The translations under genes were made by a program, and so were the position numbers. The notes below the pieces were generated by a model. The model ran no database searches and was not told where the DNA came from. It was given only the letters and a program-made list of their open reading frames with translations. From contig JBODTK010000143.1 of assembly GCA_050613775.1 (NCBI GenBank), positions 62,001-126,000 of the forward strand: a DNA stretch of 64,000 nt, in the 5' to 3' direction. Positions within the stretch are counted from its first letter, which is position 1. Every line of letters begins with the position of its first letter. Source of the stretch: Neocallimastix sp. 'constans'. Its lineage: Eukaryota. Of the stretch, positions 20,877-29,418 are shown piece after piece.

Positions 20877-22070
20877 ATGTCTTTATTTTTTCAGAAACAA
20901 ACAAATTATATCTATTTTATAATACTTTTATATGGATTGATTATTCCATATAGTATTGCTTCAGATTGTGATGTTTTTGCCAATGTTATTAATTTATTGG
21001 GTGGTAGTTTAAAAAATAATCTTTCAAGAGTCAATAATTGTTGTGATTTTAGTGGAATTACTTGTGATACTGATAATAGAATTACCGAAATGTAATTAAT
21101 GTTTTTTTTTTTTTTTTTTTTTTTTTTTATGATTATTATTATTTTTATCATTAATACAAATTTTAAAAATTATAATTCCAAATATTTAAAAATTAATGTA
21201 ATAATGTAAATAACTAATTTTGCTTATCTATTAGAAAAATTACCAAATTAGATAGCCATGAAGAAGATAAATTTGAAAAAGTGATTGATGAATTTAGTAA
21301 ATTAAAAAGTTTAACTTCATTGTAAATATATTAATTTCAGAAATAATTTCATAATACATATTCATAACAAGAAATATATTTATTATTAATTTATTATTAT
21401 AAATATTTTTATTTTAAAATATTAGACAACTATCTGAATTTAATACTTTAAGTCGAACAGGAATCCCTAGTAATATTGGAAAATTAACAAATTTAAAAAA
21501 ATTGTAAACTATTAATAAAAAATTATAGAATTAAATGTTTAATATATTTTATATTTAATAAAAATATTTAATTTAATAATTGTTATTTTTTTTTTTTTTT
21601 TTTTATTTTTTATTTTTTTTTTTATTTTTTTTTTATTTTTTTATTTTTTTTATATTATATTATTGTTTAATAAAAAGAATAATCAGTAATTCTAGTGGCG
21701 AGTGTGAGAAAACTACTATTCCACAAGAAATTGGTGACTTGGTTAATTTGGAAGTTTTGTAAGTTTGATAGTAAAATAACAAGATAAATTTTATTTTTTT
21801 TTTCCATTATAAAATATATATGCATTATATCAATATTTTAAAATAAAAGACGATTACTTTTAATTACTAAAAATTCAATTATTTATTTTTATATTAAAAT
21901 TATCATTATTATTATTATTAAATTTTATTTAGAGATTTATCTAATAATAAACATGAAGGAAAAATTCCAAAAACTTTTGAAAAACTAGTAAATTTAAATA
22001 CATTGTATGCATTAAATTTTTAAAATTTTAAATTAAACTATATATTATATATTGATTGGTATTTGAATAT

Positions 22071-22113
<43 letters not shown>

Positions 22114-22605
22114 CATTATAAAGTATATTCAATATATCAATTTATTAATAAAAAAATAATAATAATAATTAATTTTCATTTACAATAAATTTTATTATTA
22201 TTTATTTTTATACTAATATTATCATTATTATTATTTGTCAAAATTTATGTAGAGATTTATCTAAAAATAATCTTGAAGGAAAATTTCCTGATTCTTTAGA
22301 AAAGCTTGTGAATTTAAAAACATTGTATGTATTAATATTTTTTAAAATTTAAAATAAAAATATTTACGATTTACGATTTATACAAAACTATATTGATATA
22401 TATTTGAATATTAAATAGAGATTAAAAAAAAAAAAAAAAATGTTAGTATTAATGAGTTTTATATCTTTAATTTATTATTTTTATGTATTAGAAATTTGGG
22501 TGGTAATAAATTCGAAGGTACTATACCTCTTACTCTAGAAAAATTAAAGAATCTTACTAAATTGTAAGTTTTATTCCTATCATTAAATTTATATATATAA
22601 ATATT

Positions 22606-22636
<31 letters not shown>

Positions 22637-22682
22637 ATATAAATTTTTATTATTTAATTATTTGTTTGTTTAATAATTTATC

Positions 22683-22726
<44 letters not shown>

Positions 22727-23305
22727 TTAAGTGAAAATTCAGGATTAAAAGGTTATGTTCCTTTAATACCAAATGTAGATGAATGTGACTATAGTGGTAC
22801 AGATTTATGTTATTTAAAGACATCATGTTCTTCAGGATTTCTTTGTAGTAAAAAAACAATTCTAGAAACTAATAAAGAAAATGGTAGTACTGATCCAAAC
22901 AAATATGAAGATAAAAGTGAATCAAAATTTGATGTATTTATAAGAACTCTATTTTTTATTTGTATAATAGTTTGTATTTCCTTATATTGTTGTCGTCGTT
23001 GTTGTAATTTCTGTGATTGTGATTGCTGTTACGTATGTAATTGCTGTTACGTGTGTAATTGCTGTAACACGTGTAATTGCTGTTCCAACAATTCTCATAC
23101 CTTTGTTCAAGTTGAAAATGGTAATGCTGGTAATAATGTACAAAATCAAGCCTATCCATCCTACGTTGCACAACCCATGCCAACGATTCCAACCGCTGCA
23201 TATAATCCTCAAGCTGTTCCTTCCTATCCTCCTTATCAAACCTCAGTTCCACCTGAAAAACCTGGTGAACTTCCACCCTATACTCCAACCGCTCCTGAAA
23301 TTTAA
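20877..23305 (+). CDS. LRR receptor-like single-pass membrane protein A, 8 exons, ~419 aa
   Basis: Exons 20877-21091, 21235-21321, 21426-21503, 21678-21758, 21933-22004, 22253-22324, 22492-22563 and 22723-23305 are GT-AG, all phase 2, and total 1260 nt in frame. Encodes a signal peptide, Cys cap (SDC..NCCDFSGITCD), 24-aa LRRs (LDLSNNKHEGKIPKTFEKLVNLNT), Cys C-cap, TM (VFIRTLFFICIIVCISLY), Cys-rich segment and Pro-rich tail. Confidence 0.9.
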
Positions 23306-24129
23306 ATATATCAAAATAAAATTATCATAATTAAAAGTTTAAATAATTAAGTTAAAAAAAAAAAAAAAAAAAAAAAATTAAGTAAATAAATATAAAATAA
23401 ATAAAAAGTAAAAATAGATTTTAGAATAAAAAAAAAAAAAAAAAAAAAATAGAAATCAATATTAATATTAATAATATTTAATTAAAAATTATTATTATTA
23501 ATTCAATGTAATAAAATAAAATAAAAACATTCATATTTTAGTATTTTAATATTTTAATAATATTGTAAAAATAAAATATTATAAAAAAAATATAGAAAAA
23601 AAAAATATAGAAAAAAATAATAATAATAAATAAAAATTAAAGATTATTATTTATAAATAAATAAAAATATATATATATAATAGAACTATATCATAATAAT
23701 AATAAGAAAAAAAAAATTTTACAATTTGTTATTGAAATGGAGATATTTCATTTTTCATTTTCATTTTTCATTTTTCATTCTTTTTTTTTTAACATTAAAA
23801 AAAAAAAAAAAAAAAGAATTAATTTATTTTTTAATTTATTTTTAATTTATTATAAATTTATTTATTTATTTATTTATTTACTTATTTATTTATTAGAAAA
23901 AAAAATTTTTTTTAAATTATTTTTAACTTTATATAAAAAAAAATATTATTATAGAGATATTTATAGACTAAAGAAATAATATTTTTAATATTTATTTATT
24001 ATTTATATATATATATAATAAATTATAATTAATTATTTTAAAAAAAAAAATAATTAAAGAATAAAATATATATTAATATATTAATAATAAATATTTTTAT
24101 AATAATAATAATAATAATAATATAATAAA

Positions 24130-26398: not shown

Positions 26399-26435
<37 letters not shown>

Positions 26436-26472
26436 AAAGATTAATGTAAAATATATATTATATATATATAAT

Positions 26473-26509
<37 letters not shown>

Positions 26510-26663
26510 ATTTCTTTTTATATATATATATATTAAATGATGTTATATATTAAATAATTTGTTGTCTTCATTTTAATATATTTAAAATGTTTTCATTCTA
26601 TTTCTTTTATATATATATATATAAGTATTATTTTGATTAATCATTCAAACATAAAAAAAAGGT

Positions 26664-28639
26664 CTATTTATTTGTATAATTAGAGGGTGGAGGATAAGCA
26701 ATAACTGGTTGTGGTACAAAACCAACAGGTGGAACAAGATTTGGATTATAATTATTATTTTGAGTTTGAGGTGATGGACCATAATAATTATTATTTAATG
26801 GTGGACTATTTGGAGTTGGGTAATAATTATTATTATTATTATTATTATTTAATGATGGACTATTTGGAGCTGGATAATAATAATTATTATTATTATTATT
26901 AATATTAAGATTATTATTATTATTATTTAATGATGGACTATTTGAAGTTGGATAATAATTATTATTTGGTGATATGGGTGAAGGTGAAGGTGAATTAGAA
27001 GTACTTGATTCATATGGTGTTAAAACACTATCATATGGTGTAGTAATATCAACAAAACCATTTGCTGGACCAGCAAACATTGAATTATTTTTATAGGTGG
27101 ATGGATTTGGTGGTGGAATATAGTTTTGTTTATTGTTTTCTTGCTGTGATGGATTATTGGATGATTTGTAATCATTTGGTGGTGGTGATACTGGCGTTGG
27201 TGAAGCCGGAGTTGGTGAAGCGGCACTAGAATTGTATGGCGTTAAAGCATTATCATACGGAGTAGTAATATCAACAAATCCATTAGCTGGACCATTGATC
27301 ATAGAAGTATCAGTAATATCAACTGTTTGTACTGTACCAAGATTGGCATTGATATTAACGTTGATATTGGTAGTTTGAACTGTGCCTTCACCACCATTTC
27401 CATTATTATTTTTATTTTTATTTCCATTTTCATCATCATCATCCTCCTCTTCGTCAACAGAATATTCACTACTCTTTCTACAACATTTACAGCATTTACT
27501 TATGATAATACACATAATAATGGCCAAGACTATTGCAGCAACTATAATACCTATAGTTTTGTATTTATTGTTGGAATCAATTAAACGTTTTGGTTCATAT
27601 TGACTTTCATCTGAAGGATTTGGATTACCATTTACTTTATTTGTTTTTTGAACCTCTTCCTTTGTACAGTCACTGAGGGACGACTTACATTTAGAACTTT
27701 TTAAACTACATAAATCAGTAATTCCATAATCACAAGTAGCCACTTTTGGTAATAAAGGAACATAACCATTTAATTTTGTATTTCCGTTAACATTACTTTA
27801 TATATTAATGTTTATAATATTTTGATAAATTGTTTAAATTTTTTTTTTTTAAAAAAAAAAAATTAAATTATATTAATATTTATAAATTTTAGGTATAAAG
27901 TTTATATATAAATATATATATATATATTTTTTTTTTGAATAAATAATATTAATATTTATAATGTTCAAGTATACAATTTAAAATTTTTTTTGAAGATAAT
28001 ATTATAATAATAATAATAATTACGTTATATATATATATATTGATTATAATTATATATTAATAACAATTAAAAGATTAAAACCATATTTAAAATCAATCAT
28101 TATTTATATTTTTATTGAACAAATAACTTACAATTCCTCAAGATTTTTTAAATTTTTAAATTCATAAGGAATAGTACCTTCGAAAGTATTTTCTTGTAAA
28201 TTTCTAATTAAAAAAAAAAATTTTTTTGATAGAACAAAAGATATATATATTATAAAACTTTAATAATAAAATTTCATTATTTAAAAGTATATATATATAT
28301 GTATAATATAAATAATTATACATACAAAACTTTTAAGTTTTCTAAATTGCCAATGGATTTTGGAATTTTACCATTAAAACTATTATTACTCAATTCTCTT
28401 TATAAATTAAAATATTATTATAATAAAATTTATTGATATTGTTAAAATTATAAAATTAATATAAAAAAAATAATAGTTACATTTATTTTGATAACTTACA
28501 ATCTTTCTAAATTTTTTAAATTTCCAATTTCTTCAGGTAATGGAGTTCCTAAAAAATCAATATAATTGTCTTTAATAATTCTACACATATATGAAACAAT
28601 ATAAGAATATATATATATATTTATAATATTTATTATTAA

Positions 28640-28675
<36 letters not shown>

Positions 28676-29418
28676 AATAATATATATTATAAAATTAGTA
28701 AATAAGATAATTTAAAAATTATTTATTTGTATAAACTTACAAAGTTTTTAAATTTTTTATATTTCCAATTTTACTTGTAAGGGAATCATCAGTAGCTGTA
28801 ATTACATTTGTTAATTCTCTATTGTTAATATTTGTATAAAAATTAAATCAATTATTGATTATTAAATTGATTGAGTATTTATTAATCATATAAGAAATAT
28901 ATATATGTTATATTTACAATGAAGTCAAAAATGGTAAATTTCCTAATTCCCCTATTACACTATTAATATCAGCTGAATAATCTTTATAATTTTTAAATTG
29001 ACTATTAGTAGTTGGGAGGGGAAAAAAAATAAAATAAAGATGAAAATGAGTAATATAGAAATTCATTAATTGAATATATAATAAAAAAAAAAAAATAATA
29101 ATAATAATAAAGAAAAATAATTATCAGTTTCAACTATTTCTATTTTAAACTATATATACATATAAACATATTATTGTATATAAATATATTTATTTATTTA
29201 AAATTTTACATTTCGGTTATATGTTGTTGATTATCACAAATAACTCCTTTAAATTGACAACAATTAACATAATTGCTATATTCTTGTTTCATATTATTAC
29301 CCATATATTGCATTACATTGTTAAAAATTGGACAATCATTTGCTATCACATTAGGAATATTTATTCCTAAAAATAAAAAAGATGTCAGAGTTAATTGCAG
29401 ACAATGTTTTAAAGTCAT
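26664..29418 (-). CDS. LRR receptor-like single-pass membrane protein B (paralogue of A), 7 exons, ~575 aa
   Basis: Exons 29418-29210, 29001-28918, 28818-28741, 28580-28500, 28397-28326, 28203-28132 and 27795-26664 are GT-AG, all phase 2, and total 1728 nt in frame. Encodes a signal peptide, NDC..NCCQFKGVICD cap, LRRs (LELSNNSFNGKIPKSIGNLENLKV), GYVPLLPKVATCDYGITDLC cap, TM (IGIIVAAIVLAIIMCIII), KCCKCCRK, an acidic patch and a Pro/Asn/Tyr-rich tail. Confidence 0.9.

What the first reader, a model, noticed from the sequence alone, without database searches (positions are those of the whole stretch)
20877..29418. Convergent pair of plant-type LRR surface receptors built one repeat per symmetrical exon: candidate fungal pattern-recognition system
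Seen: two tail-to-tail paralogues with signal peptide, Cys N-cap, 24-aa LRRs, Cys C-cap, single TM and kinase-less tail. All 13 introns are phase 2 and split the Leu/Ile codon at the same repeat position. Internal exons are 87/84, 78, 81 and 72 nt, all multiples of 3. Established: the LxxLxLxxNxF/LxGxIP consensus is the plant-type extracellular LRR of RLKs/RLPs; 72-nt exon-per-LRR structure is known from plant SERK/ERECTA-type genes; such surface receptors are generally considered absent from Dikarya. Inference: any LRR exon can be skipped, duplicated or swapped in frame, giving a modular receptor repertoire for sensing gut bacteria, methanogens or plant ligands. Novelty is unverified.
Basis: partly seen in the sequence, partly recalled or inferred. 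Interest (0 to 1): 0.85.

Follow-up and report, generated by a model that had tools for sequence, protein, structure and literature searches.

The report
Plant-type surface receptors in gut fungus
Two neighbouring spliced genes of an anaerobic gut fungus encode membrane-anchored leucine-rich-repeat proteins predicted to fold like plant cell-surface receptors, a type rare in fungi; they belong to a gut-fungal family with a nearly fixed repeat number and likely act as receptors for conserved partners rather than as an exon-shuffled immune repertoire.

Summary
The anatomy is real. Gene A (8 exons, 419 aa) and gene B (7 exons, 575 aa) face each other; all 13 introns are phase 2 at the same repeat position (12 split Leu/Ile, one Phe). 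Contigs of 4 of 4 runs join A's exons 1-7 as modelled; B equals an unannotated Neocallimastix protein. The modelled ectodomain matches plant receptor ectodomains (Z 23). About 20 relatives were found; all with an organism name are anaerobic gut fungi. The 'modular repertoire' is weakly supported: 18 of 22 ectodomains have five internal repeats, no skipped-exon joint was seen, and B's predicted binding face is under purifying selection (pN/pS 0.16-0.32). One recent exon-plus-intron duplication (A exons 5/6) shows that repeats can be added over evolutionary time. New here: 14 of 22 tails carry a [LP]PxY motif (5.9 expected), pointing to ubiquitin-ligase recruitment instead of a kinase. Exon-per-LRR genes are known in plants, brown algae and ciliates, and a few LRR-membrane proteins were counted in early-diverging fungi; ten literature searches found no description of this family. 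The scan noted a gut-fungal LRR-membrane cluster before on other DNA (e1-9863156). Ligand unknown.

The parts
20877..23305 (+). Gene A, 8 exons, 419 aa LRR membrane protein with six internal LRR exons
   Evidence: exons 1-7 joined in contigs of 4 of 4 runs
20877..21091 (+). A exon 1: hydrophobic leader (likely signal peptide), N-cap DC...NCC.F.G..CD
   Evidence: weak Pfam LRRNT_2 hit, E 0.029, below cut-off
21235..21321 (+). A exon 2, irregular LRR, 87 nt
21426..21503 (+). A exon 3, LRR, 78 nt
21678..21758 (+). A exon 4, LRR, 81 nt
21853..22004 (+). End of intron 4 plus A exon 5 (72 nt): first copy of a recent intron+exon duplication
   Evidence: exons 5/6 82% identical; upstream flank score 75, 0 of 300 shuffles reach it, best of 55 pairs
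22173..22324 (+). End of intron 5 plus A exon 6 (72 nt): second copy of the duplication
22492..22563 (+). A exon 7, LRR, 72 nt
   Evidence: contigs continue into its first bases
22723..23305 (+). A exon 8: last part-repeat, four-Cys C-cap, stalk, transmembrane segment, tail
22934..22990 (+). A predicted transmembrane segment (aa 297-315)
   Evidence: hydropathy 2.5
22988..23083 (+). A juxtamembrane Cys-rich stretch (aa 315-346), likely palmitoylated (inference)
   Evidence: sequence
23270..23281 (+). A PY motif LPPY, 11 residues from the C-terminus
26664..29418 (-). Gene B, 7 exons, 575 aa LRR membrane protein with five internal LRR exons
   Evidence: (identical to KAL6602199.1)
29210..29418 (-). 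B exon 1: leader and N-cap
28918..29001 (-). B exon 2, irregular LRR, 84 nt
28741..28818 (-). B exon 3, LRR, 78 nt
28500..28580 (-). B exon 4, LRR, 81 nt
28326..28397 (-). B exon 5, LRR, 72 nt
28132..28203 (-). B exon 6, LRR, 72 nt; the intron after it splits a Phe codon
26664..27795 (-). B exon 7: C-cap, stalk, transmembrane segment, acidic patch, Asn/Pro/Tyr-rich tail
27498..27557 (-). B predicted transmembrane segment (aa 279-298)
   Evidence: hydropathy 3.2; helix 275-300 in the model
27234..27281 (-). B tail motif G[FY]VDI[TS]TPYDxxLTPY, copy 1 (aa 371-386)
   Evidence: twice in 4 of 4 B-clade proteins
27012..27059 (-). B tail motif copy 2 (aa 445-460)

Best explanation
A and B are two expressed members of a gut-fungal family of single-pass membrane proteins with a short LRR ectodomain predicted to fold like plant receptor ectodomains, which likely binds a conserved extracellular protein or peptide partner, while the enzyme-free tail likely recruits a Nedd4/Rsp5-type ubiquitin ligase to pull the complex inside the cell. 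Shown: gene structure, splicing of A, family membership, near-constant repeat number, slow evolution of B's exposed strand positions, PY motifs in most tails. Predicted: fold, signal peptide, topology. Inferred: ligand binding on the concave face, palmitoylation of the Cys cluster, ligase recruitment and endocytosis. B and its clade lack a PY motif and would use their twice-repeated Tyr motif or a partner instead. The exon-per-repeat layout is an old LRR gene layout that lets a repeat be duplicated or lost now and then (A exons 5/6); it is not used here as a large combinatorial generator.
For: Fold: top Foldseek hit SERK1 ectodomain E 2.2e-9; best structural alignment Z 23.1, rmsd 3.4, 222 residues to the 363-residue chain of the ERL1-TMM complex (taken to be TMM), followed by MIK2, HSL/HAESA-type, SRF6, PRK6. 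Repeat number five in 18 of 22 ectodomains, six in A alone. pN/pS at 30 exposed codons 0.16, 0.27, 0.32 in three B-clade pairs, like the rest of the LRR (0.21-0.29). [LP]PxY in 14 of 22 tails against 5.9 in shuffles, 0 of 1000 shuffles reach 14, in several separate branches of the tree and often within 25 residues of the C-terminus. PY motifs bind Rsp5/Nedd4 WW domains, and Rcr1/Comm/PRRG4 are type-I membrane adaptors of this kind (PMC7401822, passages). No kinase or other enzyme domain in Pfam scans of 7 full-length members.
Against: No ligand or partner was identified. B, P0002, P0003, P0004, P0086, P0087, P0163 and P0144 have no PY motif; the tails are Pro/Tyr-rich and the 22 rows are related, so the shuffle test overstates certainty. 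The selection test has three sequences and 30 codons and covers only the B clade; no close relative of A was found. Two B-clade relatives lack a hydrophobic leader, one with an in-frame stop just upstream, which questions type-I topology for them. Paralogues differ widely in repeats 1-3, which could still reflect many ligands.
Confidence: 0.45

Rival explanations
1. Pattern-recognition receptors of the plant RLP kind: each paralogue recognises a conserved microbial or plant molecule and signals through a separate membrane kinase; the PY tail only controls receptor turnover.
For: Closest folds are plant immune and peptide receptors. Purifying selection fits a conserved pattern. A gene annotated 'LRR receptor-like serine' is among the ten most down-regulated in a Pecoramyces-methanogen co-culture (PMC6414434, Table 3 passage; not checked to be of this family). 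Expanded LRR-RLK-like groups in chytrids were proposed for sensing or immunity (PMC13618815, passages). A transcript with a similar N-cap fuses LRRs to eight chitin-binding repeats (L065).
Against: No partner kinase was looked for or found. The ectodomain is about six repeats, the size of co-receptors such as SERK rather than of ligand-binding RLPs (recalled: about 20-30 repeats).
Confidence: 0.27
2. A diversifying receptor repertoire made by skipping, duplicating or swapping LRR exons, as in brown-algal ROCO genes.
For: All internal exons are symmetrical. A exons 5/6 are a recent intron+exon duplication. P0083 lacks exactly one 24-aa unit against the otherwise identical P0170. P0001 joins the first 153 residues of P0002 to B from residue 142 on, across the exon 4/5 border.
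Against: Repeat number 4-6, five in 18 of 22; no spare LRR exon in introns or on the other strand in the window; no skipping joint in 4 runs; purifying selection. P0083 is a single gene-model record and may be a prediction slip; the P0001 switch lies in the longest identical run (40 nt) between the two genes, where assemblers make chimeras. In Ectocarpus the exons of this same register (type II) show no shuffling (PMC3341825, passages).
Confidence: 0.1
3. Not signalling receptors but adhesion or sorting proteins: the LRR domain holds a secreted or wall protein (or cargo in the secretory pathway) and the tail motifs are only trafficking signals.
For: Tails are low-complexity and poorly conserved between paralogues; Tyr-based and PY motifs are sorting signals; some members have tails under 50 residues (P0087, P0144); signal-less relatives exist.
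Against: The capped ectodomain superimposes on receptor ectodomains including the caps; no GPI-like or wall-binding module in A or B.
Confidence: 0.18

Closest known systems
Plant LRR receptor-like proteins and short-ectodomain RLKs (TMM, SERK1/BAK1, SRF6, PRK6, SOBIR1)
   Same: Plant-type 24-aa LRR, Cys N-cap, single transmembrane segment, superimposable ectodomain; introns split the first Leu of xxLxLxx in phase 2 with 72/78/81-nt exons, as in ERECTA, SERK, SYMRK and rice LRR kinases (PMC3050792, passages).
   Different: Fungal host; a four-Cys C-cap whose profile found no named plant protein among 18 hits; long Pro/Tyr/Asn-rich tails with PY motifs or Cys clusters, where plant RLP tails are short (recalled); no kinase.
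LRR-transmembrane proteins counted in early-diverging fungi; chytrid LRR-RLK orthogroups
   Same: LRR plus one transmembrane helix with no other domain: five examples in four species (PMC2939053, passages); high-copy LRR-RLK-like groups in chytrids (PMC13618815).
   Different: The passages read describe neither this family, its caps, its exon structure nor its tail; anaerobic gut fungi are not named in the 2010 passages; relationship to the chytrid proteins was not tested.
[quoted passage not shown]
   Same: One repeat per symmetrical exon; 72-nt exons; type II register equals the one here; phase-2 bias (PMC6564038).
   Different: ROCO and Tetrahymena genes show massive shuffling, spare exons and alternative splicing; here the number is nearly fixed and only one duplication is seen.
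Type-I membrane PY-motif adaptors of Rsp5/Nedd4 (yeast Rcr1/Rcr2, fly Commissureless, human PRRG4)
   Same: Single-pass protein with PY motifs in a cytosolic tail (PMC7401822).
   Different: Those are small proteins; these carry a folded LRR ectodomain. No sequence homology was tested or found (no such Pfam hit).

Membership tests
LRR receptor-like protein (structural definition) | Plant-type extracellular LRRs with capped solenoid | tested here: met
   Pfam LRR_1/LRR_8/LRR_14; model pLDDT 70-97 over residues 31-260; Z 23 to plant ectodomains
LRR receptor-like protein (structural definition) | N-terminal signal peptide | tested here: inconclusive
   Hydrophobic leader in A, B and 16 of 20 scored members by hydropathy only; absent in P0003, P0004, P0022
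LRR receptor-like protein (structural definition) | One transmembrane segment, no kinase | tested here: met
   One peak after the C-cap in 22 of 24 rows; no kinase Pfam hit
LRR receptor-like protein (structural definition) | Plasma-membrane location and signalling through a partner kinase | not testable with these tools
   Needs localisation and interaction data
LRR receptor-like kinase | Cytosolic kinase domain | tested here: not met
   Tails are low-complexity, pLDDT under 50, no Pfam domain
Exon-shuffling LRR repertoire (Ectocarpus ROCO type) | One repeat per symmetrical exon | tested here: met
Exon-shuffling LRR repertoire (Ectocarpus ROCO type) | Highly variable repeat number and spare or inverted exons | tested here: not met
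   Five repeats in 18 of 22, range 4-6; no extra exon in the window
Exon-shuffling LRR repertoire (Ectocarpus ROCO type) | Diversifying selection at exposed positions | tested here: not met
   pN/pS 0.16-0.32 in the B clade, three sequences; A untested
Exon-shuffling LRR repertoire (Ectocarpus ROCO type) | Alternative splicing of repeat exons | tested here: inconclusive
   No skip joint in contigs of 4 runs over A exons 1-6; contigs drop rare forms
Type-I membrane PY-motif Rsp5/Nedd4 adaptors | [LP]PxY motif in the cytosolic tail | tested here: met
   A: LPPY; 14 of 22 members; not met for B
Type-I membrane PY-motif Rsp5/Nedd4 adaptors | Binding to WW domains and ubiquitination of a partner | not testable with these tools
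   Needs pull-down and mutant

The most novel reading that the evidence does not exclude
Anaerobic gut fungi have their own family of plant-type cell-surface LRR receptors that sense microbes or plant material in the gut and, lacking a kinase, act by recruiting a ubiquitin ligase through PY tails: a receptor-plus-ligase-adaptor design not described in fungi, occasionally retuned by whole-exon duplication.
Probability: 0.25. Interest if true: 0.8.

Novelty: new variant of a known kind. Interest (0 to 1): 0.5.

Why it matters
Fungi are held to be almost without LRR surface receptors, and how gut fungi sense bacteria, methanogens and plant fibre is open. A defined, expressed, multi-member family with a diagnostic cap and a testable tail motif gives concrete candidates for ligand screens and co-culture expression work. 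The shared intron position with plant receptor genes also bears on whether this receptor design is ancient or was acquired. The more exciting idea of an exon-shuffled repertoire is not borne out for these two genes.

Tried and rejected
No whole genome was held, so family size per genome is a lower bound: four members tied to the named species of P0005 (A, B, P0002, P0158), probably six with P0163 and P0170. The deep profile search of protein representatives never ran, so the range outside gut fungi, above all in chytrids, is untested; one search scored only 7986 candidates. C-cap alignments were too variable for a DNA pattern scan; the full-length alignment worked but returned only spliced transcripts of the family (9 of 80 loci), so the exon structure of other paralogues was not seen; most other loci were unrelated LRR proteins, many from marine metagenomes, showing that this LRR type is not confined to plants. 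The C-cap folded alone gave pLDDT 53 and was not searched; Atlas look-ups gave generic plant LRR clusters (0.83-0.91) and add little. A first repeat count by regular expression was unreliable and was replaced by the alignment. Rows left out of the 22-row alignment: P0001 (possible chimera), P0083, P0143, P0138, P0145 (short or doubtful models), near-duplicates (L001, L002, L006, L008, P0102, P0142 and other cluster members), L009 (no C-cap). P0001 and P0083 were considered as evidence of swapping or skipping and set aside as probable assembly or annotation artefacts. No complex prediction was sent: no specific binding is claimed. Literature: searches found no description of the family; PMC5168858 and PMC6712302 contain no 'LRR' in their main text; subscription papers and all supplements (for example Tables S3/S4 of PMC2939053 and the tables of PMC5168858) were not seen and may list members.
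Full report
Setting. The window is 7-40% GC by 2-kb block, mostly 10-20%, and carries GH48 cellulases with CBM_10 dockerins and a CotH gene with a chitin-binding module, typical of anaerobic gut fungi (recalled). No genome was held. Gene B's protein is identical to KAL6602199.1, a 'hypothetical protein' of Neocallimastix sp. 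'constans'.

Observation. Building the genes from splice sites gave A (+, 20877-23305, 8 exons, 419 aa) and B (-, 29418-26664, 7 exons, 575 aa), 3358 nt apart, tail to tail. All 13 introns are GT-AG, phase 2, at the first Leu position of xxLxLxx; 12 split Leu or Ile, the last of B splits Phe. Internal exons are 87, 78, 81, 72, 72, 72 and 84, 78, 81, 72, 72 nt. A window-wide scan for such exons found them only in these genes. A and B align at 39% over 315 aa with one 24-aa gap.

Expression. 22 public runs from 17 studies hold 41-43% of the sampled words of A's genomic span, as expected of a spliced transcript. In 4 of 4 runs laid, one contig runs through exons 1-6 without a differing letter and continues into exon 7; no joint skips an exon. 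One run is on record as RNA, two are guessed RNA, one is unknown; all are contigs, which cannot exclude rare isoforms. The last junction of A was not seen directly; lengths fit it. For B, P0006 equals residues 36-575 and sits on a 1751-nt contig, so it must be spliced as modelled.

Fold. AlphaFold on an 11-sequence alignment gave a confident solenoid from about residue 30 to 260, a helix at 275-300 and a disordered tail. Foldseek ranks the SERK1 ectodomain first (E 2.2e-9). Structural re-alignment ranks the 363-residue chain of the ERL1-TMM complex first (Z 23.1, rmsd 3.4, 222 aligned), then MIK2, HAESA-type, PXY, SRF6 and PRK6. Pfam finds only LRR families. The C-cap alone did not fold confidently.

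Family. The ectodomain search gave 240 hits; among the 120 listed, 11 are family members and most others plant RLKs/RLPs. A profile of the four-Cys C-cap gave 18 hits among 7986 scored candidates; the five with an organism name are Neocallimastix, Piromyces and Anaeromyces, and a cluster mate is from Pecoramyces. A metagenome scan added 9 of 80 loci with the cap, all spliced transcripts. Where named at all, members are 'hypothetical', 'L domain-like' or 'RNI-like' proteins. Range outside gut fungi is untested.

Test of the repertoire idea. In an alignment of 22 ectodomains (rows dropped are listed under Tried and rejected) 18 have five internal repeats, two have four, one is irregular, and A alone has six. 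A's extra repeat is a recent duplication: exons 5 and 6 are 82% identical and their upstream intron flanks align with a score no shuffle reached, the best of 55 pairs. So whole-exon gain happens, but rarely. In the B clade, pN/pS at 30 exposed strand codons is 0.16, 0.27 and 0.32, no higher than in the rest of the LRR; the N-cap is the most variable part (0.41-1.50 on 41 codons, noisy). Two records look like exon events: P0083 lacks one exact 24-aa unit against P0170 and P0001 switches from P0002 to B across the exon 4/5 border. The first is a lone gene model; the second switches inside the longest identical run, 40 nt. Both are more simply artefacts, though real skipping or conversion is not excluded.

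The tail. 14 of 22 tails carry [LP]PxY against 5.9 expected from shuffles; 0 of 1000 shuffles reach 14. The motif is usually preceded by acidic residues and lies near the C-terminus, and it occurs on several separate branches. A has LPPY and a 32-residue Cys-rich stretch after the membrane. The B clade has no PY motif but repeats G[FY]VDI[TS]TPYDxxLTPY twice in 4 of 4 proteins. PY motifs bind Rsp5/Nedd4 WW domains, and Rcr1/Comm/PRRG4 are type-I membrane adaptors built on them (PMC7401822, passages). Against a uniform picture: two B-clade relatives have no hydrophobic leader, one with an in-frame stop eight codons upstream.

Mechanism. Most likely (0.45): a short LRR ectodomain binds a conserved protein or peptide partner, perhaps as a co-receptor of SERK/TMM size, and the tail couples it to ubiquitination and uptake. 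Rivals: RLP-type pattern receptor with a separate kinase (0.27), adhesion or sorting protein (0.18), exon-shuffled repertoire (0.10). The first two overlap in what the ectodomain does; ligand identity separates them.

What is known. [quoted passage not shown] High-copy LRR-RLK-like groups are reported in chytrids (PMC13618815, passages), and plant-like secreted LRRs across fungi (bioRxiv 10.1101/2025.08.22.671746, passages). The intron position and exon sizes are those of plant LRR kinases (PMC3050792, passages); one-repeat exons with shuffling are known from brown algae (PMC3341825, passages; PMC11378527, abstract) and Tetrahymena (PMC6564038, passages). A review of fungal immunity mentions LRRs only for NLRs (PMC10197012, passages). 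Ten searches found no account of this family; supplements and subscription papers were not seen. An earlier scan note, e1-9863156, reports a gut-fungal cluster of membrane LRR proteins with a fast-changing face on another genome; I could not see its sequence, a sequence look-up with B found nothing, and B's clade behaves the opposite way.

Verdict. Real, expressed, apparently undescribed family; a new variant of a known kind (RLP-like ectodomain with PY-type tail in an early-diverging fungus). The modular-repertoire reading is not supported for these genes. Interest 0.5.

Noticed in passing
L065:65-2368 (+): AT-rich transcript for a 768-aa protein with a hydrophobic leader, a Cys N-cap like this family's, plant-type LRRs and eight chitin-binding (Chitin_bind_1) stretches, no transmembrane segment seen: a candidate secreted LRR-chitin-binding fusion.
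   Followed up: partly
L009:46-1647 (+): AT-rich transcript for an LRR membrane protein with the N-cap and a C-terminal PPSY motif but without the four-Cys C-cap; near-identical tandem repeats suggest a second, more repetitive subfamily.
   Followed up: partly
L054 (3188 nt): AT-rich transcript for an approximately 890-aa protein with a leader and a long LRR array ending in a C-cap-like Cys stretch; open at the 3' end.
   Followed up: no
L002:1-60; proteins P0003, P0016, P0018, P0004: Closest relatives of gene B in two other lineages begin 7-9 residues before the N-cap Cys with no signal-like leader; L002 has an in-frame stop upstream.
   Followed up: partly
protein P0001: Mosaic of P0002 (to residue 153) and gene B (from 142); probably an assembly chimera at a 40-nt identical run, possibly gene conversion.
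   Followed up: yes
window 51995-54279 and 59120-61405 (+): Two intronless GH48 cellulase genes with CBM_10 dockerins, 99.5% identical over 2286 nt with no long flanking similarity reported: recent duplication or gene conversion.
   Followed up: partly
window 32695-36621 (+): 1308-aa intronless ORF with ankyrin repeats and a very long Asp-rich tract.
   Followed up: no
window 39420-41741 (-): CotH kinase-family protein with a Thr/Lys-rich linker and a chitin-binding module.
   Followed up: no
window 5518-6729 (+) and 13481-15460 (-): Two ORFs (about 394 and 643 aa) with several hydrophobic segments and no Pfam hit; the first looks like a multi-pass receptor-type membrane protein.
   Followed up: no
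window 24130-25200: Between the two genes, a stretch of less extreme composition broken by long poly-A runs and stops in all frames; possibly a decayed mobile element.
   Followed up: partly
PMC6414434 Table 3: Pecoramyces gene A03640, annotated as LRR receptor-like, is among the ten most down-regulated genes in co-culture with a methanogen; membership of this family not checked.
   Followed up: no
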